This document shows, in pieces, positions 14,952 to 55,423 of a stretch of 64,000 bases of DNA. The position numbers and the translations under genes were made by a program. This stretch comes from an uncultured Candidatus Saccharibacteria bacterium (GTDB lineage: Bacteria; Patescibacteriota; Doudnabacteria; UBA920): assembly GCA_964536745.1 (NCBI GenBank), contig CAZHYL010000003.1, forward strand, positions 1,001 to 65,000. The letters are read 5' to 3'. How positions within the stretch are numbered: position 1 is the stretch's first letter; every line of letters begins with the position of its first letter. Under the pieces are notes generated by a model. The model had not been told where the DNA came from. It ran no database searches and saw only the letters and a list, made by a program, of their open reading frames with translations.

Positions 14952-15338
14952 ATGAGGAGAGAATATCTTTCGCGTAATCTGGGCATACTCGGTAAAATTT
15001 GGGCATTTTCCACAGTCGTGGCGTTATGTGTTCTCTTAATACGTACTACTACGGACCCTGGGATGATTGTCCTTTCTGTTGCCATCGGATTTGTGTTTAC
15101 TTGCTTGGCTTGCGAAAAATTGAATTCGCTTACAGGGGTGAAGGATACTAGGTTTATGTTGCATTCAATATTTTGGATGGGTTGCATTGGCTTTGGTCTT
15201 GTAACTTTATTTGCCTCGAACTATTTTAGCATGCTAACAAGCCTAGTTTTACAAGGATTTTTTAATGCACTTTCACTGAGTCTGGTGGTTTTCTATCACA
15301 CTGGTACTCAATCCCAATATCAAAAAACTCTGGAATAA
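14952..15338 (+). CDS. Small integral membrane protein (about 4 TM), hypothetical.
   Basis: AGGAGG RBS 7 nt upstream of ATG. Highly hydrophobic translation. Confidence 0.5.
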   Translation: MRREYLSRNLGILGKIWAFSTVVALCVLLIRTTTDPGMIVLSVAIGFVFTCLACEKLNSLTGVKDTRFMLHSIFWMGCIGFGLVTLFASNYFSMLTSLVLQGFFNALSLSLVVFYHTGTQSQYQKTLE

Positions 15339-45506: not shown

Positions 45507-45533
45507 TTAGCACTCGACTTGACAGAGTGCTAA
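45507..45533 (+). promoter_or_regulatory. CIRCE operator (TTAGCACTC-N9-GAGTGCTAA), the HrcA binding site upstream of hrcA-grpE-dnaK.
   Basis: Perfect match to the CIRCE consensus, with both 9-nt arms exact and a 9-nt spacer, 44 nt upstream of hrcA. Confidence 0.85.
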
Positions 45534-45576: not shown

Positions 45577-46329
45577 ATGAAAAGCAATCCTAAAATTACT
45601 CCCCGACAAGCTAAGGTTTTGGCCTGTATTGTGAAAATAAATTCCGAGACAGGGAAGCCGGTGGCGTCTAAGGATTTAATCGAAAAAGGTTATTTTGACG
45701 TCAGTGGAGCGACCTTGCGTAACGAGATGCAGGCTTTGGAAGAATCAGGACTGATAACTCATCCACATACTTCAAGTGGTAGGATTCCTACCGACGAAGG
45801 ATTCCGGTATTTTGTTAACCAGCTTATGGATAGGGTTCAGTTGTCTGTTAGAGAGCAGCAAACTTTGCGCCAAGAAATTTTGCGCCTTCAAGCTGTGAAT
45901 GCAGAAATCGGTCGTAGGTTGGCAAAAATTCTTTCCATGCATTCTTCACAAGCTTCTTTTGCTATTTTGCCGGAAGAGGTTTCATCTACAGGCATTTCTA
46001 ATATTTTGGAAAGTGATCAGTTGCCTGTCGAAGATGCAAGAGAGATTGCTAAGTTCTTCGATAACTTAGACGATTACGCAGATCAGATTATGGCAGATTA
46101 TTCGGATAAATCACCACAAACTTTTATTGGCAAAGAGCTAACTTTATCTCGCGGCAGTGATTATTCGATGATTGTGTCTGGCGTACAACTCCCTTCAGGT
46201 AAAAAAGGGGTGATCGGATTAATTGGGCCAAAGAGTATGAAGTATCCTAAAAATATTTCACTGATGGAATATATTTCTAAATTCCTAGGTGGTGGCTCGG
46301 CAGTAATATTAATTTCACTAATTACATAA
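45577..46329 (+). CDS. hrcA: Heat-inducible transcription repressor HrcA (short form).
   Basis: N-terminal winged-helix 'LTPRQAKVLACIVKINSETGKPVASKDLIEK…ATLRNEMQALEESGLITHPHTSSGRIPTDEGFRYFV'. Genomic context fits. Confidence 0.8.
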   Translation: MKSNPKITPRQAKVLACIVKINSETGKPVASKDLIEKGYFDVSGATLRNEMQALEESGLITHPHTSSGRIPTDEGFRYFVNQLMDRVQLSVREQQTLRQEILRLQAVNAEIGRRLAKILSMHSSQASFAILPEEVSSTGISNILESDQLPVEDAREIAKFFDNLDDYADQIMADYSDKSPQTFIGKELTLSRGSDYSMIVSGVQLPSGKKGVIGLIGPKSMKYPKNISLMEYISKFLGGGSAVILISLIT

Positions 46330-46820
46330 TGGACAACGACGAAAAATTAGAGTTTGAAGAGAGTGATTTAACTCGCAAGCTCGAAGAATCACAAGAAGAA
46401 GCCAAGACCAATTTAGCAGGTTGGCAAAGAGCTCAAGCAGACTTTGAAAATTATAAAAAGCGTGAAGAGGCAAAGCAATCAGAAATTCTAGAATTCGCTA
46501 AAGAGGTGACGATTGTAAAACTATTACCAACTCTCGATGCTCTGCATCAAGGGTTAAGGCATGCACCTGCGGGGGTTGATGAAAAATGGCTTGCAGGAAT
46601 TAATGGCACATTAACACAGTTGGATAAAGTTTTAGCTGAAATGGGTGTAAAAAAGATTGAGGCCTTGGGGAAACCGTTTGATCCACACTTCCACGAAGCA
46701 ATTCGGGAAGTTGCAGGGGATGAAGATGGGATTATTGTAGAAGAGATGCAAAGTGGCTTTGAGCTTAACGGTAAGGTTATAAGACCAAGCCAAGTAGTAA
46801 TAAGTAAGAAAGGGAATTAA
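46329..46820 (+). CDS. grpE: Nucleotide exchange factor GrpE.
   Basis: Coiled-coil N-terminus, 'LLPTLDAL' and a C-terminal β-domain. 163 aa, in the operon. Confidence 0.75.
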
Positions 46821-46824
46821 ACAT

Positions 46825-48720
46825 ATGTCAAAAATTATTGGAATCGATTTAGGAACTAGTAACAGTGCAGCTTCTGCAATCGAAGCAGGAAAGCCTGTTA
46901 TCATTCCTGCTGCCGAAGGTACGTCTATCGGTGGTAAGGCGTTTCCATCTTACGTCGCATTTACAAAAGATGGTCAACTATTAGTAGGGGAACCAGCACG
47001 TCGCCAGGCTGTCACTAATCCAGAAGGAACGGTTTTTGAAGCTAAGCGTAAAATGGGAACTAGTCACCGCTACACTATCAATGGTAAGGAGTACTCCCCA
47101 GAACAAATTAGCGCCTTTATCTTGCAAAAGATTAAGCGTGATGCAGAAGCCTATCTGGGCGATAAAGTAGAGAAAGCAGTTATTACTGTACCTGCGTATT
47201 TTGATGATGCCCAGCGTCAGGCAACCAAGCAGGCCGGTGAAATTGCAGGACTAGAAGTTGTTCGTGTCATTAATGAACCTACCGCAGCTGCTTTTGCTTA
47301 TGGGATCGATAAAACTGGAACTCAAGATCAGAAGATTTTAGTGTTTGACCTTGGTGGTGGAACTTTGGATGTTACCATTATGGAATTTTCGGAACATGAA
47401 GAAGATGGTAAACAACAAGCGACCTTCGAAGTTAAATCTACTTCTGGTGACACAGCACTAGGTGGTAAGGATATGGACGCAGCTTTAATTGACTATATTA
47501 CTAGTGAATTTAAATCACAGAGCGGAATAGATATCACTGCCGATAAAATGGCAATGAACCGTGTTCGTGAAGCAGCAGAAAAAGCAAAGATTGAACTATC
47601 GACAACTTTAGAAACTGATATCATTTTGCCTTTCATCGCTCAGAATGATTCTGGTTCCCAGAACTTAGAAATGAAGTTAACCAGAGCTAAGTTAGAAGAT
47701 TTAGTTAAGCCGATCGTTGCGAAGATGCGTGCTCCAGTAGAACAAGCAATAAAAGATGCAGGCTTAACTCCACAGAGTATCGACAAGATTATTCTAATTG
47801 GTGGTCCAACTCGTATGCCAGTTGTTCAAAAATTTGTTGAAGACTATGTTGGTAAGCAGGTAGAACGTGGTGTAGATCCTATGGAAGCAGTAGCAAAGGG
47901 TGCTGCGGTACAAGCAGGTGTATTGGGTGGTGAAGTCCAAGGTAAGGAAATCCTTTTGTTGGACGTTACGCCATTAACTTTAGGTCTTGAAACCTTAGGC
48001 GGTGTACGTACTCCACTAATCGATAGAAACACAACTATTCCAACATCTAAATCACAAGTGTTTTCTACAGCTGCAGACAATCAAACTTCGGTTCAGATTC
48101 ATGTTTTGCAGGGAGAACGAGAGTTTGCTGCAGATAACAAATCACTCGGAACCTTTAATTTAGACGGTATTCCTCCAGCACCACGTGGTGTTCCTCAAGT
48201 TGAAGTAACTTTTGATATTGATGCAAATGGTATTTTGAAGGTTACTGCAAAAGATAAGGCTAGCGGTAAAGATGCACATATTACAATCCAAGGTTCAACT
48301 AATCTTTCCAAAGAAGACGTTGAGCGTATGAAGCAAGAGGCAGAAGCTCACGCTTCGGAAGATCGTAAGCGCCGCGAAACAGTTGATGCTCGTAATGAGG
48401 CTGATACTTTAATTGCCGTATCAGAGAAGACTTTAAAAGATGGAGGCGATAAAGTAAAACCAGAAGATAAAACAGCTGTCGAAACCGCTATTTCAGAATT
48501 GAAGGAAGTACGAGATAAAGATGATGTAGATGCTATCAAATCTAAGATCCAAGCACTTTCTACAGCAATTCAAAAAGTAGGTGCAGCTATGTATGAACAA
48601 GGAACCCAGCAACCTGGTGATGCAGGAACAGTAGATCCTAAAGAAAAAGAGATTTCTGATGAAGAGAAACCAGTAGATGCAGAATTTACAGAAGTTCCAA
48701 AAGACGGAGAGCAGAAGTAG
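46825..48720 (+). CDS. dnaK: Chaperone DnaK (Hsp70).
   Basis: '[13 protein letters not shown]', '[11 protein letters not shown]', '[11 protein letters not shown]' and the '[15 protein letters not shown]' linker. 631 aa. Confidence 0.9.
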
Positions 48721-48937
48721 GCAATAAAAAAGAGCATCATCGAAGGGGTTTCGGTGATGCTCTGTTGCGCGTTTGGGCAGGGTTAGGTCTGTAACATTGA
48801 AGTGTTAGTTTAGAGTCGTTACAGATGAAGGAATGTGGTTATACAAACAACTGTTTTAGGATAAGCTGCTTGAAAGAAGGTGACAACTGAATGATTTTCC
48901 TACTCTCCAAAGCGGGATGGTAGAACAACTCTAAAGA

Positions 48938-49003
48938 TTAGAGCGACCAGTAGGAGAGTAGAGGTGAGTACTCTCCGAGATCAATGTTTTCTGCCATAGG
49001 CAT
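48938..49003 (-). CDS. Tiny ORF (21 aa, MPMAENIDLGEYSPLLSYWSL) with a strong GAGGAGG RBS, antisense to the dnaK-dnaJ transcript. Speculative.
   Basis: Manual translation. RBS GAGGAGGAAA directly upstream of ATG. Lies in the GC-rich insert 48721-49355. Confidence 0.2.
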   Translation of the reverse strand: MPMAENIDLGEYSPLLSYWSL

Positions 49004-49093
49004 TTTCCTCCTCAAGGATATAAACAAACGAGAGTTTTCCGTTCTCTCAAAACCTGAAGGCTCCCTTAAACCTTCTTATATGGATCACCTCCG

Positions 49094-49282
49094 TTAGGGA
49101 ATGGGCGCAAGGTTGATTCTGCGTATTGGTTTACCAGAATTGTCGTATTGGTTGATTGGTCGTTTTCTTTTGAGTTCAATTTTCCAACCAATGGTTTCGC
49201 GGCTCATGATTTTTAGAGCCTCTATGTCGGAATCAGAAAAAACTTTAGGAAAGTTCTTTCTGGCAGGCAGTGCTGAGCCCAT
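49094..49282 (-). CDS. Small ORF (62 aa) antisense within the dnaK-dnaJ intergenic insert, with a GGGAGGG RBS. Possible small DNA/RNA-binding protein. Speculative.
   Basis: ORF-track entry. RBS GGGAGGGAAAAATCT-ATG. Confidence 0.25.
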   Translation of the reverse strand: MGSALPARKNFPKVFSDSDIEALKIMSRETIGWKIELKRKRPINQYDNSGKPIRRINLAPIP

Positions 49283-49355
49283 AGATTTTTCCCTCCCGTA
49301 AATGTAATATAGCTTACATTTAAATTATACTCCTCAAAATATTAATAAACAAATT

Positions 49356-49652
49356 ATGAACAATAATAATCCACAGCAGAACCAGATTCAAATTAAAGCT
49401 GATGACGTTAAGTTAGCAGGTAGTTATGCTAATATGATGCAGGTATCTCATACCAAAGAGGAGTTTGTACTAGATTTCGTAAGTCTATTTCCTCCTTCTG
49501 GGCAATTAGTATCACGCATTTTGGTTAGTCCGGCTCATGCCAAGCGAATCATGTTGGCTCTAGAGGAAAATATTAAAAGATATGAATCACAGTTTGATAA
49601 AATTAAAGATACCGAAGAGGAAAAACCAGCCTTTGGTTTTAAGACAGAATAA
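49356..49652 (+). CDS. Conserved-looking small hypothetical protein (98 aa) between dnaK and dnaJ.
   Basis: ORF starting 9 nt upstream of dnaJ. No family assigned with confidence. Confidence 0.45.
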
Positions 49653-49660
49653 CATTTATA

Positions 49661-50821
49661 ATGGCGCAAAATTATTACGAGACATTAGGAGTAGATAAAT
49701 CTGCAACAGCCGATGAAATTAAAAAGGCTTATCGCAAATTAGCTCATAAATATCATCCAGATAAAGGAGAGGGGAACGATACAAAGTTTAAAGAAGTCAA
49801 CGAAGCGTATCAGGTACTATCTAATCAGGAAAAACGCAGTCAGTACGATCAGTATGGACAGACTTTTGATCAAGCTCAACGAAACGGTCAGGCACACCCT
49901 GGTGGTGGTTTTGGTGGTGGTCCGTTTGGGGCTGGCGGATTTGATTTCTCTGGTTTTAGTTCTGGCGGTGGGGTTGAATTTGATTTAGGCGATATCTTCG
50001 GTGATATTTTTGGCTCACGTTCAGCACGGCAAGCTCGTAGAGAGCGTGGGATCGATTTAGAAATGCCTTTGACGATAACTTTTGAGGAAGCGGTTTTTGG
50101 TGTTGAAAAGAGCATCACTTTAGAAAAGAAAGATGCGTGTAAGACTTGTGAGGGTACTGGAGCAAAAGCAGGTACAAAAGTAGTCACTTGTAGTGTATGT
50201 CATGGTCAGGGTCAGATTCGTTCACAGCGTCAAACCATATTCGGTAATATGGCTACCAGCACAATTTGTGAGAAATGCGAAGGCAGTGGTCAACTTCCAG
50301 AAGATCCTTGTGAGACATGCAAAGGCAGTGGAATTAAGAGACAAGAGAAAACTATTGAAGTAAAAGTGCCCGCTGGTATAGACGATGGTCAACGTGTAGC
50401 TGTACGAGGTGAAGGAGAAGTGGGGTATAGAGGGTCCAAAGCCGGCGACTTGTTTTTATCTATAAGGGTAAAGCCTCATAAGGAATTTAGCAGGCGTGGA
50501 TACAATTTGTACAAAGATTTACCGATTAGTTTTACTCAAGCTGCTTTGGGAGCAAAGGTAAAGGTTGAAACCCTCGATGGGGCGATAGAATTAAAAATCC
50601 CTAGTGGAACTCAATCTGGGCAAGTTTTTAGGGTTGCTCATAAAGGGGTTCCGGTAATTAATTCAAGTAAGCGGGGAGATTTATACATCACTGTTCGCGT
50701 GATTATCCCTAATAAACTCTCTAAACAAGAAACAGAATTACTTAAAAAGTTGGGCGAGTTAAATGGTGAGACCGTCGAGGTTAATAAAAGTTTTTGGGAA
50801 AACATCAAAGACAGTTTTTAG
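49661..50821 (+). CDS. dnaJ: Chaperone DnaJ (Hsp40) with J domain, G/F region, four CxxCxGxG zinc-finger repeats and the C-terminal substrate-binding domains.
   Basis: '[31 protein letters not shown]', a Gly/Phe-rich region, and 'CKTCEGTG…CSVCHGQG…CEKCEGSG…CETCKGSG'. Confidence 0.9.
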
Positions 50822-51224: not shown

Positions 51225-51773
51225 ATGGACAGTTTTAGTGATTTGCAAGTTTTTATTAGAACCTTCAATTGGCATTCTCCATCGTGGGATTTGTTTATAA
51301 TTCTGTTTTGGTTAGTAGCAAGTGTTATCTATGCACTTTCTGCAGGGAGGGGCAGGATTCTAACAATCTTGGTAAGCGTGTATATGAGCCAGTTGTTAGT
51401 TAAAGAAATGCCATTTTTGTCTGAAGCGGTTTCTGGAAAATTAGACGTTGCTACACCGACCTTGCAACAGCTCTTGGCTTTCGTGGTAATTTTTGTGATC
51501 TTATTTATATTTCTTGGTCGCTATGCTTTTAAAAGTTCTGCGGATGGAAAGCAGTTTAGCGCAGTCGCATTTTCTTTAATATTTGCAGTCTTGCAAGTTG
51601 GTTTGTTAGTGAATATAGTTTTGAATTATCTACCAGATCAGGTAAAGAATGCGTTTTCTCCTCTAATATCATTTATCTTCCTGCATCCATACAGTAATTT
51701 TGTATGGTTATCACTGCCAGTTTTATTCCTAGTTATCGTTGGCAGATTTATTTCAGACCGACACGAAGTCTAA
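51225..51773 (+). CDS. Integral membrane protein (about 5 TM), hypothetical.
   Basis: Hydrophobic ORF. Confidence 0.45.
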   Translation: MDSFSDLQVFIRTFNWHSPSWDLFIILFWLVASVIYALSAGRGRILTILVSVYMSQLLVKEMPFLSEAVSGKLDVATPTLQQLLAFVVIFVILFIFLGRYAFKSSADGKQFSAVAFSLIFAVLQVGLLVNIVLNYLPDQVKNAFSPLISFIFLHPYSNFVWLSLPVLFLVIVGRFISDRHEV

Positions 51774-52189: not shown

Positions 52190-55100
52190 ATGGAAGAAAA
52201 TCATAATCAATTTTCGGCTAAAACAAGCCTAAATTACAGGTTTGTAAGTTACTTCTTGAACAACCCGCAAATTACATTGTTGTTGTTTTTGAGTTTGTTA
52301 ATTACAGGTGTTGCTGCTTTTTTTCAGCTTCGAGTTGAAGGGTTCCCAGAAGTAAAAATACCTGTTGCTGTTGTGACTACCGTTGTGCCAGGTGCTGGTC
52401 CAGAAACAGTAAGAACTACTGTGAGTGAGCCGCTTGAAAATAGTCTGAAAGACTTAAAAGGTCTAAGTGAAATTAGTTCTACTTCGCAAGCTAATTTTTC
52501 TGTGCTAGCTCTAACATTTGAAGAAGGTGTGGATATTAATTTAGCAGTTCAGGATGCAAGAAATAAGGTTGCGAGCGCAGACTTACCAGATGGAATCCAA
52601 CAACCGAACATAGTTGTCCCAGAAACCGGTAGGGCACCATTTTATATTGCAGTAACTGGAGGAACAGATTTGTTGTCTTTGCGAAAAGCTTCACAAAATT
52701 TAAAAACTGAAATTTTAGCATTAGATGGAGTAAAATCTTTTACAGAAATTTCTGGAATTGATGAAAAGATCTATATTGATTTACCCCCACAGTATCAGCT
52801 GCCACAGGTAGTAGAGCAGATTAAAGCCAGTAACATTGGTTTTCCATTGGGAGAAGCTGTAATAGATGGAAGGCAAATTCCTGTAGTTGCTTCTACGGAT
52901 GTTAAATCCTTGGAGGATGTTAGAAATATCAGGATTACCCTGCCAGATGGACAGCAGAAATTACTCGCGGATATAGCGCAGGTTTACAGGGGTGTAGATT
53001 ATGCAGATAAGGTTCATCGAGTGGGGTACTTTGATGAGCAGTTTAATCAATTCAAAATTCAGCCAGCAGTATTATACGAAGTTAGCTTGAAAAAGAACGC
53101 TGATTTATTAGATCTTACAAATGAGGTCGAGAAAGTTGTAGAAACTGTAAAGCCCTCCGATAATAAAGTTGATTATGCAATCGTCTTAAATTCTGGGAAG
53201 CAGTCCCAGCATCAAGTTAATGAAATTGTAGAGGCAGCTATTGGTGGGAAGTGGGACACAAACAGTCCAATAGGCTATATTGGCTTATTGTTTGGTGGTG
53301 TTTGGCTGTTAGTGTTGGGGATGCTTCTATTGCTTGATTGGAAGACTGCTCTTATTTCTGCTTTAGCAATTCCATTATCATTTTTAACCACTTTCTTAGT
53401 TTTGTACGTCACTGGTATTCAGATGAATACTTTGGTGCTGTTTTCTTTTATTTTAGTGCTTGGTTTAATTGTTGATCCAGCAATAGTTGTGTTGGAATCT
53501 ATACGTCGTTACGTTGATATTGGTTATCAGGGTAAAGAAGGTGTCTTGCGTTCTGTAGAAGTTATTGGTTTAGGTTTATTTATTGCTGTTTTAACTTCCA
53601 TGATTGTATTCATACCTTTTGGTTTGGTTTCTGGTACTTTTGGACAACTTATTAGTTATATTCCTTGGACTGTGCTTCCTGCGTTAATTGCTTCTTATTT
53701 CGTGCCGTTAATTTTCTTAACTTGGTTAGGGTCAAAGTTTATTAAGCCTGAAAAAGAAACTCACTTACGAGACGAAGATGATGTTCATACTTTATGGCCA
53801 ATTGCGCAGTGGTTTATTAAAGCTAATAAGTATGTGTTGCAAAGAAAGGGTTTGCAAATTCTTGTTGTTCTTCTTGGTTTAATTATCCCAATTGGCGTTA
53901 CTGTACTTTTGTTCGCTACCGATCAGGTAAGACAAGTGCAGTTTGCTCAACCAGATGACAGCAACTATATTCAACTATCCATACCTCGTCCCACCAACCA
54001 GACATATCGAGAGTTACTTATTCAATCCACTGATACTGAAAACATTCTAAAGAAATACGCAGGCGATATTAATAGCTTCTTTTATCAATCCTTAAACGAA
54101 TCTACTGGTGGTTCTTCTACACTTAGTGTGTTTATAGAGCTTAAGCCTATCGCAGAACGTGATGAAAAATCTTCTGAAATAGTGAAGAAAATTCAAGCAG
54201 ATCTCCAAGGTAAGTTTGGCGAACGGGCTTTGGCCAGTGAGATTGCAGCTGGTCCTCCAGGGGCGTCTTACCCAGTGAGTGTAAAGGTGTTTGAAAACGA
54301 CAATAATAAGTTGGCTGTTGCTTCAGAAAAAATTGCTCAAGAACTCCGCTCTTATAAAGAGGTAAGTTTGGTAGTAACAGATTTTCAAAGCCAAAGCAGA
54401 GAGCTTGTTGTGAAGGTGGATTCTGAACGAGCAGTTTCAAAGGGACTATCTGCGCCACAAATATATGGTCAAGTGGCTGGTTTATTAGGGGAAAGCACCT
54501 TATTCCGTTTAGAAGAGACAAGTGTTGTGTTGAGGGTCCCAGACGACACCAAGCCAACAACCAAAGAAGCATTACTTGCAAGTTTAATTTATGGGCCAAC
54601 AGGACCAGTAGTCCTGGGTGATGTTGCTTCTGTAGCAGAGTCGCAGGTAGCTTCTTCAATTCGCAGCTTAAATGGTGAGAGATACGCAAGTGTAAATGCA
54701 CGCGTTAAGGATTCTAGGGATGCGATTAATGTTCAGCGTAAAATCGATGACTGGGCCAACAATAACACCTCCGCATTGGGAGTAAATGAAAGAGCGTTTG
54801 AGCCACGCTCTGGAGTTAACGAATTCGAAAAGTCATTCCAAGAGTTGTTCATTGCTATCTTTTTATCAATCTTGGTAACTTATATGGCATTTGTAATTTT
54901 CTTCCGTAGCTTTGCTCAACCGTTTATCATTCTATTTGCTATCCCGTTAATTTTAATTGGTGTGTTCCCAGCCCTTGCAATATTTACAGGTGGCCAATTT
55001 GGGTTCTTGGAAACCATTGGAATATTAATGGTGATTGGTATCGCAGAAAATGTTGGGATTTTCTTAATTGATTATGCTAACAGAAAAGTTAAATCTGGGA

Positions 55101-55423
55101 TGGATAAAAAAGAAGCCATTGCGATCGCTTCTGGTATTCGACTTCGTCCAATTATCTTAACCAAGGTTACTGCACTCGCAGGGTTACTTCCTTTGGCTGT
55201 CTTTTCTCCGTTCTGGCGAGGCCTTGCTCTGGTGGTGATTTTTGGAATCTTAAGTTCTGGTATATTATCTTTGTTTACAACCCCAGTTTTGTATAATTGG
55301 TTTACTAGAGTTAAGAAAGAAAAACCTGAAGAATCATCTGTTGGTCAGGATGAGCCTGTACAGTTTGGTTATGCTAATGGTTCAACAGAGCCGACTACCT
55401 TACCACCGAATTTACCTATATAG
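52190..55423 (+). CDS. RND-superfamily efflux transporter permease (AcrB/HAE1-like, 12 TM plus two periplasmic loops). No adjacent membrane-fusion partner.
   Basis: The AcrB-type N-terminus '…FPEVKIPVAVVTTVVPGAGPETVRTTVSEPLENSLKDLKGLSEISSTSQANFSVLALTFEEGVDINLAVQDARNKV…' is present. 1077 aa with two 6-TM bundles. Confidence 0.8.
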   Translation: MEENHNQFSAKTSLNYRFVSYFLNNPQITLLLFLSLLITGVAAFFQLRVEGFPEVKIPVAVVTTVVPGAGPETVRTTVSEPLENSLKDLKGLSEISSTSQANFSVLALTFEEGVDINLAVQDARNKVASADLPDGIQQPNIVVPETGRAPFYIAVTGGTDLLSLRKASQNLKTEILALDGVKSFTEISGIDEKIYIDLPPQYQLPQVVEQIKASNIGFPLGEAVIDGRQIPVVASTDVKSLEDVRNIRITLPDGQQKLLADIAQVYRGVDYADKVHRVGYFDEQFNQFKIQPAVLYEVSLKKNADLLDLTNEVEKVVETVKPSDNKVDYAIVLNSGKQSQHQVNEIVEAAIGGKWDTNSPIGYIGLLFGGVWLLVLGMLLLLDWKTALISALAIPLSFLTTFLVLYVTGIQMNTLVLFSFILVLGLIVDPAIVVLESIRRYVDIGYQGKEGVLRSVEVIGLGLFIAVLTSMIVFIPFGLVSGTFGQLISYIPWTVLPALIASYFVPLIFLTWLGSKFIKPEKETHLRDEDDVHTLWPIAQWFIKANKYVLQRKGLQILVVLLGLIIPIGVTVLLFATDQVRQVQFAQPDDSNYIQLSIPRPTNQTYRELLIQSTDTENILKKYAGDINSFFYQSLNESTGGSSTLSVFIELKPIAERDEKSSEIVKKIQADLQGKFGERALASEIAAGPPGASYPVSVKVFENDNNKLAVASEKIAQELRSYKEVSLVVTDFQSQSRELVVKVDSERAVSKGLSAPQIYGQVAGLLGESTLFRLEETSVVLRVPDDTKPTTKEALLASLIYGPTGPVVLGDVASVAESQVASSIRSLNGERYASVNARVKDSRDAINVQRKIDDWANNNTSALGVNERAFEPRSGVNEFEKSFQELFIAIFLSILVTYMAFVIFFRSFAQPFIILFAIPLILIGVFPALAIFTGGQFGFLETIGILMVIGIAENVGIFLIDYANRKVKSGMDKKEAIAIASGIRLRPIILTKVTALAGLLPLAVFSPFWRGLALVVIFGILSSGILSLFTTPVLYNWFTRVKKEKPEESSVGQDEPVQFGYANGSTEPTTLPPNLPI

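What the first reader, a model, noticed from the sequence alone, without database searches (positions are those of the whole stretch)
48721..49355. GC-rich ~630-bp insert between dnaK and dnaJ with antisense small ORFs bearing strong RBSs
The hrcA-grpE-dnaK-dnaJ operon is interrupted between dnaK (ends 48720) and the small gene plus dnaJ (49356 onwards) by a segment of clearly higher GC. On the opposite strand it encodes a 62-aa ORF (49094-49282, RBS GGGAGGG) and a 21-aa ORF (48938-49003, RBS GAGGAGG). It also contains stable hairpins (GGAGAGTA-N8-TACTCTCC) and, on the plus strand, a GGATCACCTCC motif. Antisense expression inside a heat-shock operon could act as a convergent regulator, or the segment may be a small inserted element.
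Basis: seen in the sequence. Interest (0 to 1): 0.55.

Follow-up and report, generated by a model that had tools for sequence, protein, structure and literature searches.

The report
Antisense small-gene/RNA cassette beside dnaK
The 635-bp gap between dnaK and dnaJ is not an insert: it looks like a conserved, separately transcribed unit on the opposite strand that encodes a 62-residue protein and a folded RNA with a perfect ribosome-binding sequence that has no gene behind it, in a bacterium that otherwise hardly uses such sequences.

Summary
All 19 close relatives examined (Patescibacteria, dnaK 72-89% nt identity) have a 317-719 bp dnaK-DUF3467 spacer. Read on the minus strand, these spacers share: a TATAAT -10 box beside the DUF3467 start; an intrinsic terminator with its T-run on the minus strand, abutting the dnaK stop; and, in 15 of 19, one copy of GGAGGTGATCC (at most 1 mismatch), the complement of the 16S rRNA 3' tail.

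In the window this 11-mer has no start codon. It lies in a loop closed by a covarying pseudoknot and is followed by a second covarying hairpin (module 1). Downstream lies a second conserved domain with alternative pairings (module 2).

The 62-aa ORF behaves as a gene (pN 0.014, pS 0.12; five syntenic variants). The 21-aa ORF is not conserved. Nothing matches Rfam or Pfam. The clade's housekeeping genes lack Shine-Dalgarno sequences, whereas the cassette's ORFs all have strong ones.

Best reading: a dual-function antisense RNA whose orphan extended Shine-Dalgarno sequence docks 30S subunits, as STAB-SD does. The function is inferred, not shown.

The parts
49324..49352 (-). Sigma-70-type promoter of the minus-strand unit: -35-like TTGTTT (49347-49352), a 17-nt spacer, and -10 TATAAT (49324-49329). 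It lies directly beside the DUF3467 start codon.
   Evidence: Read. A perfect TATAAT sits at the same position in 14 of 19 related spacers, and the others match 5 of 6. The tool's own promoter scan did not list it because its -35 is weak.
49300..49321 (-). 5' stem-loop of the transcript (AAATGTAA...TTACATTT).
   Evidence: Inverted repeat I10. L161 keeps a hairpin here with different stem bases (ATGC...GCAT).
49094..49297 (-). Shine-Dalgarno GGGAGGG (49291-49297) and the 62-aa ORF (49094-49282): a basic, orphan small protein.
   Evidence: Against L161, pS is 0.119 and pN 0.014 in this frame. Homologues: P0123 (57% identity, same synteny) and P0124-P0126. No Pfam or PDB match. The AF2 model has pLDDT 63.5 and a single helix, residues 17-39.
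49096..49101 (-). 5' strand of the pseudoknot (TTCCCT). It pairs with AGGGAG in the loop of hairpin 1 (49060-49065).
   Evidence: Complementarity between each sequence's own flank and loop exceeds non-matching combinations: 6 of 5040 permutations reach the observed value.
49082..49092 (-). GGAGGTGATCC, an orphan extended Shine-Dalgarno sequence and the perfect complement of the 16S rRNA 3' tail GGAUCACCUCC. There is no start codon at initiation distance (AUA UAA follows).
   Evidence: No intramolecular partner beyond chance. The 16S tail sequence is taken from established knowledge, not from this genome.
49056..49075 (-). Hairpin 1 of module 1 (GAAGG / CCTTC). Its loop carries the 3' strand of the pseudoknot.
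   Evidence: Found by model R1/R2. 5 pairs, 4 of them with changes on both sides, 100% of cells paired.
49030..49055 (-). Conserved linker AGGTT, then hairpin 2 (GAGAG / CTCTC) with a conserved loop, AACNGAAA.
   Evidence: 5 of 5 pairs have changes on both sides. Alignment A4.
48938..49013 (-). Second Shine-Dalgarno sequence, GAGGAGG, and a 21-aa ORF. An SD+ATG at this place also occurs in the L162/L164/L165/L169 group and in L003, but the peptide is not conserved.
   Evidence: The 81-nt indel in L161 changes the peptide after residue 5.
48900..48976 (-). Module 2 switch. Segment 1 is GGAGAGTA (48969-48976), segment 2 is TACTCTCC (48953-48960), and segment 3 is GGAGAGTAG (48900-48908). Segment 2 can pair with either segment 1 or segment 3.
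   Evidence: Repeats I7, I16 and D12. RNAalifold selects the long-range 2:3 helix. On the model R3 alignment, 96% of cells pair, with one compensatory pair (C-G to U-A) and one G-U. All four lineages have a hairpin that covers segment 2.
48885..48900 (-). Conserved unpaired stretch, GGAAAATCATTCAGTT.
   Evidence: Nearly invariant in the six module 2 sequences. No complementary target elsewhere in the window.
48844..48872 (-). Hairpin 3 (CAAGCAGCT / AGTTGTTTG), with a loop containing TCCYAAA.
   Evidence: 9 of 9 pairs have changes on both sides. G-U pairs are present and there are no A-C cells, which favours the minus strand.
48789..48824 (-). Hairpin 4 (CTGTAAC / GTTACAG).
   Evidence: Repeat I13. 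In L161 the stem is kept while the loop diverges.
48723..48763 (-). Intrinsic terminator of the minus-strand unit (AGAGCATCA...TGATGCTCT, then TTTTTTATT), ending 2 nt from the dnaK stop codon.
   Evidence: I2. A hairpin followed by a T-run on the minus strand only is seen in all 19 relatives. The tool's terminator scan missed it because the stem has a mismatch.

Best explanation
The spacer is an independent minus-strand transcription unit, about 600 nt long. It runs convergent with dnaK and divergent from DUF3467-dnaJ, and it produces a dual-function RNA.

Its 5' half is the mRNA of a 62-aa basic protein found only in this clade. Its 3' half is a structured non-coding domain.

The centre of that domain is an 11-14 nt sequence perfectly complementary to the 3' tail of 16S rRNA. 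It is held single-stranded in a loop closed by a pseudoknot and has no start codon behind it.

I infer that this orphan extended Shine-Dalgarno sequence docks 30S subunits without initiating translation. Known examples are STAB-SD of cryIIIA and the very strong SDs of hbs and yrzI in Bacillus. Docking would protect the downstream RNA from 5'-to-3' decay. It would also tie the RNA's fate to ribosomes whose anti-SD is free.

Translation of the upstream small ORF ends at or within about 50 nt past the 11-mer in every relative that has module 1. The ORF runs through the 5' strand of the pseudoknot, so translation would open the pseudoknot each time.

Shown: the anatomy, its conservation, the covariation, the coding signature, and the lack of SDs in the surrounding genes. 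Inferred: transcription itself, 30S docking, stabilisation, and any link to the heat-shock response.
For: Strand and boundaries:
- Perfect TATAAT in 14 of 19 relatives, and a terminator T-run on the minus strand in all.
- 6 G-U cells against 0 A-C cells in module 2.
- Window z-score -3.15 on the minus strand against -0.99 on the plus strand.

The 11-mer:
- Present in 15 of 19 spacers, at 157 times the background density.
- No intramolecular partner beyond chance.
- No start codon in the 8 module 1 loci. It does serve as a true SD, 8-9 nt before ATG or TTG, in L002, L004, L005, L010 and L172.

Structure:
- Module 1: 98.5% of cells paired, 9 of 10 pairs with changes on both sides, 0 of 500 shuffles reach this.
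- Pseudoknot permutation test: 6 of 5040.
- Module 2: 97.2% of cells paired, and hairpin 3 is compensatory at 9 of 9 pairs.

Constraint:
- Against L161, the flanking genes have pS 0.45-0.61. Module 1 plus its linker is 113/113 identical, and ORF62 has pS 0.12.
- Other pairs show spacers about as conserved as dnaK.

SD-poor background:
- DUF3467 0 of 11, dnaJ 0 of 11, the 182-aa gene 0 of 10 and the transporter 0 of 8 have an SD. All 5 called minus-strand small ORFs have GGAGG.
- In the window, 8 of 49 long ORFs have any SD core, which is about the chance level.

Precedent: ribosomes bound to an 11-of-12 SD block RNase J1 on the yrzI small-peptide operon (PMC12067863), on hbs (PMC5737220), and at the SD-like STAB-SD.
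Against: - There are no expression data, so neither the transcript nor 30S binding has been observed.
- In the window the 11-mer is internal, 3' of ORF62. Classical STAB-SD lies in the 5' UTR. Only the L165/L169 group carries it at the 5' end.
- This organism's 16S 3' end and its RNase J were not available to check.
- Hairpins 1 and 2 contain only Watson-Crick pairs, so they do not identify the strand. Folding z-scores in the relatives are similar on both strands.
- The near-identity with L161 could reflect recent recombination rather than constraint.
- Stabilisation alone does not explain why the element sits at this locus, nor what the module 2 switch is for.
- Both covariation alignments were fitted to the tested structure by the covariance model, and they hold only 6-7 distinct sequences.
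Confidence: 0.45

Rival explanations
1. A cis-antisense or convergent-transcription regulator of the heat-shock operon. The strong minus-strand promoter fires against read-through from dnaK into DUF3467-dnaJ. RNA polymerase collision, promoter occlusion or duplex formation would then set the dnaK:dnaJ ratio, and the RNA's internal features are secondary. This is compatible with the best explanation rather than exclusive of it.
For: - The only CIRCE operator is upstream of hrcA (45507-45533, a perfect match). There is none in the spacer.
- dnaK has no plus-strand T-run after its terminator hairpin.
- No convincing plus-strand promoter was seen for DUF3467. DUF3467-dnaJ therefore probably depends on read-through across the spacer.
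- The position between dnaK and DUF3467 is fixed in all 19 relatives.
Against: - Interference needs only a promoter. It does not explain the invariant 11-mer, the covarying pseudoknot and hairpins, or purifying selection on ORF62.
- Read-through of the sense strand has not been shown.
Confidence: 0.22
2. A small-peptide toxin-antitoxin or similar selfish small-ORF cassette, in the manner of spyTA/yrzI. On this view, several strong-SD small ORFs on one stable RNA are swapped between lineages by recombination.
For: - There are two or three strong-SD small ORFs per transcript.
- Cassette 'types' are replaced between genomes that share about 80% dnaK identity, while being 94-100% conserved within a type.
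- The yrzI operon shares the very strong SD and the stable processed RNA (PMC12067863).
Against: - ORF62 is hydrophilic and basic, not a membrane peptide.
- The second ORF is not conserved even in the closest relative.
- In the window, module 1's 11-mer has no ORF behind it.
- The locus is fixed in position and single-copy.
- The PADLOC defence library was not searched.
Confidence: 0.1
3. The functional RNA is the plus strand: a structured intercistronic segment of a dnaK-DUF3467-dnaJ mRNA. It could be a processing or stability element or an RNA thermometer. Its GGAUCACCUCC would act as an anti-SD mimic that masks SD sequences.
For: - Helices made only of Watson-Crick pairs fold on either strand.
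- The relatives' plus strands also give z-scores of -1.3 to -4.7.
- On the plus strand the motif equals the 16S tail. OLE RNA uses an SD/anti-SD mimic to bind bS21 (PMC12054373).
Against: - DUF3467 and dnaJ have no SD to mask, in 0 of 11 loci each.
- The G-U pairs in module 2 would be A-C mismatches on the plus strand.
- The -10 box, the terminator T-runs, the ORF62 coding signature and the use of the motif as a real SD in five relatives all point to the minus strand.
- The window's plus strand gives z = -0.99.
Confidence: 0.08
4. A remnant of an inserted mobile element or of a decayed gene.
For: - GC content like that of coding sequence.
- Mosaic content between lineages.
Against: - No terminal or flanking repeats, no other copy, and no transposase or any Pfam hit.
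- The same promoter and terminator frame is present in every relative.
- Strong purifying selection.
Confidence: 0.04

Closest known systems
STAB-SD of cryIIIA, and the very strong SDs of B. subtilis hbs and yrzI/spyTA mRNAs (30S bound at the SD blocks RNase J1)
   Same: - Extended complementarity to the 16S 3' tail: 11-14 nt here, 11 of 12 in yrzI.
- In STAB-SD, as here, there is no start codon behind it.
- yrzI is likewise a roughly 500-nt transcript carrying several small ORFs and ending in a protective terminator (PMC12067863, PMC5737220).
   Different: - Here the element is internal, following ORF62, and it sits in a loop closed by a covarying pseudoknot. In Bacillus it is an unstructured 5' UTR site.
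- The host is a Patescibacterium that hardly uses SDs.
- Neither RNase J nor any stabilising effect was tested.
Extended SD of rpsU in Flavobacteriales (a sensor of ribosomes with a free anti-SD)
   Same: A lineage in which housekeeping genes lack SDs, the anti-SD is presumably retained, and one locus carries an unusually long SD (PMC9976891, PMC13000453).
   Different: - The ORF here is not bS21: BLASTP, Pfam, a PDB profile search and hhalign were all negative.
- In the window the long SD is not in front of any ORF.
- Sequestration of the anti-SD in Patescibacteria is not known to occur.
Dual-function bacterial sRNAs (SgrS/SgrT, RNAIII/hld, SR1/SR1P)
   Same: One transcript with its own promoter and terminator carries both a small ORF and a conserved structured non-coding domain.
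   Different: - No seed region or trans target was found.
- There is no sequence or structure similarity to any Rfam family.
OLE RNA P6 SD/anti-SD mimic that binds bS21
   Same: A structured non-coding RNA that carries a sequence taken from the SD/anti-SD pair and is linked to stress adaptation (PMC12054373).
   Different: - OLE pairs its SD-like and anti-SD-like strands with each other. Here the SD-like strand has no internal partner.
- Size, structure and host phylum all differ, and the Rfam OLE model gave no hit.

Membership tests
Any Rfam 15 family | Covariance-model score at or near the family threshold | tested here: not met
   In the spacer region the best E-value is 0.25, with bits far below the gathering scores. 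Across the whole window only tRNAs reach the gathering threshold. Seven related loci give nothing in their spacers.
STAB-SD-type ribosome-docking stabiliser | SD-like sequence with extended complementarity to the 16S 3' end | tested here: met
   GGAGGTGATCC(A) gives 11-14 nt complementary to GGAUCACCUCC(UU). The 16S tail is taken from general knowledge; this genome's 16S is not in the window.
STAB-SD-type ribosome-docking stabiliser | No start codon at initiation distance | tested here: met
   None of the 8 module 1 loci has a start codon there. AUA UAA follows in the window.
STAB-SD-type ribosome-docking stabiliser | Located in the 5' UTR, upstream of the RNA it protects | tested here: inconclusive
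   In the window it is internal (49082-49092), after ORF62 but upstream of the structured 3' domain. In L165 and L169 it is within about 15 nt of the -10 box.
STAB-SD-type ribosome-docking stabiliser | 30S binding that blocks a 5'-to-3' exonuclease (RNase J) and lengthens the half-life | not testable with these tools
   This needs toeprinting and half-life assays. RNase J was not looked for outside the window.
Ribosomal protein bS21 (PF01165) | Sequence or profile similarity of the 62-aa ORF to bS21 | tested here: not met
   A resemblance seen by eye was not borne out. BLASTP gave no alignment, Pfam nothing at E up to 10, the PDB profile search no bS21 chain, and hhalign a probability of 0.04%.
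RNA thermometer (ROSE / fourU type) | The SD is base-paired to an internal anti-SD stretch | tested here: not met
   The best internal duplexes for the 11-mer are no better than shuffled controls, with z between -1.85 and +2.2.
Leader-peptide transcription attenuator | Small ORF with alternative hairpins, controlling a terminator in front of a gene on the same strand | tested here: not met
   The alternative pairings exist (segments 1/2/3). However, the terminator is 140 nt away, and the next gene, dnaK, is convergent.
Type I or small-peptide toxin-antitoxin | A small hydrophobic or toxic peptide with a conserved partner (an antisense RNA or an antidote peptide) | tested here: inconclusive
   ORF62 is basic and hydrophilic, and the second ORF is not conserved. 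Toxicity cannot be tested here.
Insertion sequence / MITE | Terminal inverted repeats, target-site duplication, multiple copies or a transposase | tested here: not met
cis-antisense RNA | Transcript from the opposite strand that overlaps a sense transcript | tested here: inconclusive
   The minus-strand promoter and terminator are predicted and conserved. Sense read-through is inferred from the single CIRCE site and the lack of a plus-strand T-run, but it has not been observed.

The most novel reading that the evidence does not exclude
In this SD-poor Patescibacteria lineage, the cassette may be one of the few clients of SD/anti-SD pairing, acting as a sensor or sponge for ribosomes whose 16S 3' tail is exposed. 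The pseudoknot presents an orphan 11-14 nt SD. How much of it is occupied by 30S subunits would set the stability and conformation of the RNA (the module 2 switch) and the output of the 62-aa basic protein. Because the cassette is wired antisense into the dnaK-dnaJ cluster, this would couple the state of the translation apparatus to chaperone expression. That would be a second, independent case, outside Bacteroidia and not involving rpsU, of a retained anti-SD being used for regulation rather than for general initiation.
Probability: 0.12. Interest if true: 0.85.

Novelty: new variant of a known kind. Interest (0 to 1): 0.55.

Why it matters
If this reading holds, it adds an unannotated structured RNA and small-protein locus to the poorly charted non-coding repertoire of CPR/Patescibacteria.

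It would also be a clean natural example of an 'orphan' extended Shine-Dalgarno sequence kept invariant while everything around it covaries or is replaced, in genomes whose housekeeping genes do not use SDs.

That bears on an open question: why SD-poor lineages keep the anti-SD. It also gives a concrete element to test with 30S binding, RNA half-life and ribosome-composition experiments.

Finally, it suggests that the dnaK-dnaJ cluster in this clade is split by a convergent transcription unit, which would affect how the heat-shock operon is expressed.

Tried and rejected
- Known RNA families: Rfam scans of the spacer, the whole window and seven relatives gave nothing. ARAGORN found no tRNA or tmRNA in the spacer.
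- 16S fragment: only 12 nt plus AACCTG resemble the 16S 3' end, and there was no SSU hit.
- ORF62 homology. The word-indexed search, a full phmmer scan of 1.84 billion representatives and a profile search found only five variants, all from this locus. Pfam and PDB gave nothing. The AF2 model was low-confidence (pLDDT 63.5), so no fold search was run.
- bS21 idea: I saw a resemblance by eye (DI.AL..M.R ... G...EL.R.R), tested it four ways and rejected it.
- Programmed frameshift at the 11-mer: L001 has A AAA AAG after it. The other loci have no slippery site, and the position of the ORF stop relative to the motif varies.
- A downstream ORF starting at a non-AUG codon behind the 11-mer: no consistent frame.
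- An internal anti-SD partner, i.e. a thermometer or OLE-like mimic: none beyond chance.
- A trans target of the conserved stretch GGAAAATCATTCAG: none in the window.
- blastn and nhmmer of the whole spacer against relatives found nothing. Conservation only became visible motif by motif.
- Module 1 outside this locus: model R2 found no further copy in 1.15 Mb of 173 related loci plus the window.
- Strand assignment from folding energy in the relatives was uninformative.
- A metagenome scan added only one close relative.
Full report
**Context**

The window comes from a Patescibacteria (CPR) genome with GC 0.40. The closest public records are labelled variously Saccharibacteria, Doudnabacteria or 'Patescibacteria group'. 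The local gene order is:
- a perfect CIRCE operator at 45507-45533
- hrcA at 45577-46329 and grpE at 46329-46820 (Pfam)
- dnaK at 46825-48720
- the 635-bp spacer at 48721-49355
- a 98-aa DUF3467 gene at 49356-49652 (PF11950)
- dnaJ at 49661-50821

**Checking the observation**

Two descriptive claims fail.
- The spacer is not GC-richer than its flanks: 0.403 against 0.415 for dnaK and 0.420 for dnaJ (window mean 0.398).
- Nothing marks it as an insert. It has no terminal or flanking repeats and no second copy in the window.

**Relatives**

I used the DUF3467 protein as an anchor to fetch loci. These came from species-representative genomes, from metagenomes, and from exact-protein look-ups of close homologues. 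Nineteen distinct loci share 72-89% dnaK nucleotide identity with the window, and all have a dnaK-DUF3467 spacer of 317-719 bp.

Whole-spacer blastn and nhmmer found no similarity. Read on the minus strand, however, all the spacers share a frame:
- A -10 box next to the DUF3467 start. It is a perfect TATAAT in 14 of 19, usually with a TTG-containing -35 at 16-18 nt.
- A GC-rich terminator hairpin (typically -14 to -25 kcal/mol) directly against the dnaK stop codon. Its T-run is on the minus strand and not on the plus strand.

Transcription from about 49317 to about 48725 on the minus strand is therefore predicted. It has not been observed.

**The 62-aa ORF**

Database searches found only variants from this same locus. 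These were a word-indexed search of 5.8 billion proteins, a full phmmer scan of 1.84 billion representatives and a profile search. The variants are:
- P0123: 57% identity, also 62 aa, lying between DUF3467 and a convergent, unannotated gene at the position of dnaK
- P0124 (L168), P0125 (L001) and P0126 (L004/L171)

They share an N-terminal motif, [KR]-x-[FL]-P-[KR]-V-F-S-x-x-D-I-x-A-L-x-I-M.

Against the closest relative, L161, the ORF has 5 synonymous and 2 non-synonymous changes (pS 0.119, pN 0.014). Against L168 the pN/pS ratio is 0.46 in this frame and 1.0-1.5 in the two other minus-strand frames. The one plus-strand frame that scores similarly contains a stop codon. So it behaves as a protein-coding gene.

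It has no Pfam or PDB relative. AlphaFold gives a low-confidence model with one long helix. A resemblance to bS21 that I noticed by eye was tested four ways and rejected.

Other relatives carry unrelated small ORFs at the same place (L003, L167, L170, L173), each with a strong SD.

The 21-aa ORF is not conserved. In L161 an 81-nt indel rewrites it after residue 5, and its counterparts in L162-L169 share nucleotides (TACTCTCC) but not amino acids.

**The 11-mer**

It is therefore complementary to the near-universal 16S 3' tail; that tail sequence is established knowledge, since this genome's 16S is not in the window.

With at most one mismatch, it occurs exactly once on the minus strand in 15 of 19 spacers. 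That is 157 times its density elsewhere in the same loci. With flanking bases, the complementarity reaches 12-14 nt in several loci.

Its role differs between loci:
- In L002, L004, L005, L010 and L172 it is a true SD, 8-9 nt before an ATG or TTG.
- In L165 and L169 it lies at the very 5' end of the predicted RNA.
- In the window and seven other loci (L161, L001, L003, L167, L168, L170, L173) it has no start codon behind it.

RNAduplex scans found no internal partner better than shuffled controls. It is therefore most simply a single-stranded site for a trans partner.

**Module 1 (49102-49025)**

The 11-mer is followed by hairpin 1, a conserved (C/T)AGGTT, and hairpin 2 with an AACNGAAA loop.

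A covariance model built from the window sequence alone recovered all eight instances (E 1e-26 to 6e-4). All were in the same spacer and on the same strand. A model rebuilt from the eight found nothing else in 1.15 Mb of 173 related loci plus the window.

On that alignment 98.5% of cells pair. Nine of ten pairs have changes on both sides. No shuffle out of 500 reaches this, and slid controls give 24-52%. One caveat applies: the alignment was fitted to the structure and holds only seven distinct sequences.

The 4-6 nt just upstream of the 11-mer pair with the loop of hairpin 1, for example TTCCCT/AGGGAG, TGCCTA/TAGGCA, CCCTG/CAGGG and CCGG/CCGG. Each sequence's own flank and loop are more complementary than mismatched combinations: 6 of 5040 permutations reach the observed value. 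The 11-mer therefore sits in a roughly 20-nt loop closed by a pseudoknot.

The upstream ORF always ends close to the motif, between just before it and about 50 nt after it, and in varying frames. The conservation is therefore at the RNA level. Translation of that ORF would unwind the 5' strand of the pseudoknot.

**Module 2 (48979-48837)**

A third segment, GGAGAGTAG at 48900-48908, can pair with the same TACTCTCC.

A third model found this domain only in the window, L161, L162/163, L164, L165/166 and L169. Pair counts on its alignment:
- 97.2% of cells pair.
- The long-range helix is mostly invariant, with one compensatory pair and one G-U.
- Hairpin 3 (48872-48844) is compensatory at 9 of 9 pairs.
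- There are 6 G-U cells and no A-C cells. This favours the minus strand, because G-U pairs would be A-C mismatches on the plus strand.

A nearly invariant unpaired stretch, GGAAAATCATTCAGTT, follows segment 3. I found no complementary target for it in the window.

**Constraint**

Between the window and L161:
- dnaK, DUF3467, dnaJ and the next gene have pS 0.45-0.61.
- ORF62 is 96% identical.
- Module 1 plus the linker to module 2 is 113/113 identical.
- The module 2 core is 117/121 identical.
- The 3' 150 nt drop to about 75%.

Other close pairs show spacers about as conserved as dnaK (L162/L164 0.937 against 0.920; L006/L083 0.897 against 0.885). Pairs at about 81% dnaK identity can have unalignable spacers (L003/L005 0.42).

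So the locus is strongly constrained within a cassette 'type' and is replaced between types. The extreme identity with L161 may also include recent recombination.

**SD-poor background**

In the gene calls of eleven close loci:
- No SD: DUF3467 (0 of 11), dnaJ (0 of 11), the conserved 182-aa gene (0 of 10) and the transporter (0 of 8).
- dnaK has only a weak AAAGGA.
- All five called minus-strand small ORFs have GGAGG.

In the window, 8 of 49 long ORFs have any SD core, which is about what chance predicts. The four with strong SDs have no Pfam domain. The cassette carries three strong SD-like sites within 300 nt, so it is exceptional for this genome.

**Interpretation**

The best-supported description is an independently transcribed, antisense-oriented, dual-function RNA: the mRNA of a small basic protein, joined to a structured 3' domain whose invariant feature is an orphan extended SD presented by a pseudoknot.

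The closest mechanistic precedents are STAB-SD and the very strong SDs of hbs and yrzI/spyTA in Bacillus. There, 30S subunits bound at the SD block RNase J1 and yield a stable RNA carrying small ORFs (PMC12067863, PMC5737220). I therefore favour 30S docking as the role of the 11-mer, with moderate-to-low confidence in the mechanism.

A convergent-transcription effect on dnaK to dnaJ read-through is plausible. There is a single CIRCE site and no plus-strand terminator tail. This effect is not exclusive of the favoured explanation.

A plus-strand element, a toxin-antitoxin cassette and a mobile-element remnant are less well supported, for the reasons given under the rivals.

In an SD-poor lineage, the parallel with the Flavobacteriales rpsU extended SD (PMC9976891, PMC13000453) and with the OLE RNA SD/anti-SD mimic (PMC12054373) allows a more novel reading: a sensor of ribosomes with a free anti-SD. 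The present evidence neither excludes nor supports that reading.

**Novelty**

No Rfam family, Pfam family or paper in the searchable library describes this locus. It is a new, narrowly distributed RNA and small-protein cassette that uses a known principle (an SD-like ribosome docking site) in a new architecture and host.

Noticed in passing
window 45507-45533: A perfect CIRCE operator (TTAGCACTC-N9-GAGTGCTAA) upstream of hrcA. It is the only one in the 64-kb window, so heat-shock control of DUF3467-dnaJ would need read-through across the spacer.
   Followed up: partly
window-wide; L161-L173: The clade is SD-poor. DUF3467, dnaJ, the 182-aa gene and the ACR transporter never have an SD, and dnaK has a conserved weak AAAGGAAAT. 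The four window ORFs with strong SDs (starts at 14952, 17593, 44895 and 55490) have no Pfam domain.
   Followed up: partly
L002 about 4875-4965, L004 about 565-660 (= L171), L005 about 4820-4920, L172, L081 (minus strand): A different conserved, structured 5' UTR lies upstream of the extended SD and an ATG: GTTCTG..ATTGACA..CCCCGGA..CTAGAAC..GGGGATAATTCCGG..GGAGGTGAT. By eye it shows compensatory changes (CCGG/CCGG against CCAG/CTGG; AGTTGC/GCAACT against TTTGTA/TACAAA). In L004 it precedes the ORF62 homologue. It has no Rfam hit, so it may be a riboswitch-like or protein-binding leader.
   Followed up: partly
L161 about 2560-2640 (minus strand), against window 48983/48984: An 81-nt insertion or deletion lies inside the otherwise 97-100% identical core, between the second SD/ATG and segment 1 of module 2.
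   Followed up: partly
window 49356-49652 and more than 500 related loci: A DUF3467 gene lies between dnaK and dnaJ across many Patescibacteria lineages (224 hits in genomes and 357 in metagenomes). Its function is unknown, and only one paper in the library even mentions the domain.
   Followed up: no
window 51225-51773: A 182-aa ORF directly after dnaJ is conserved in all close loci and has no Pfam domain. It is followed by a roughly 1077-aa ACR_tran/RND-type transporter at 52190-55423.
   Followed up: no
L164 265-555: One relative has a 96-aa GIY-YIG domain ORF inserted between grpE and dnaK. This may be a homing-endonuclease-like insertion in the same operon.
   Followed up: no
L026 about 4582 (minus strand); L006 1157 (plus strand): Further near-perfect copies of the 11-mer outside the close clade or outside the spacer. 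In L026 (dnaK 52% aa identity) one lies in the dnaK-DUF3467 spacer, followed by a terminator. In L006 a perfect copy lies upstream of the operon, next to a second GGAGGTGG-N7-ATG.
   Followed up: no
window 49101-49301 (+): A 66-aa plus-strand ORF lies antisense to ORF62. It has no Pfam hit. The plus-strand frame whose third codon positions coincide with those of ORF62 contains a stop codon, so the 66-aa ORF is most likely a shadow of the minus-strand gene.
   Followed up: partly
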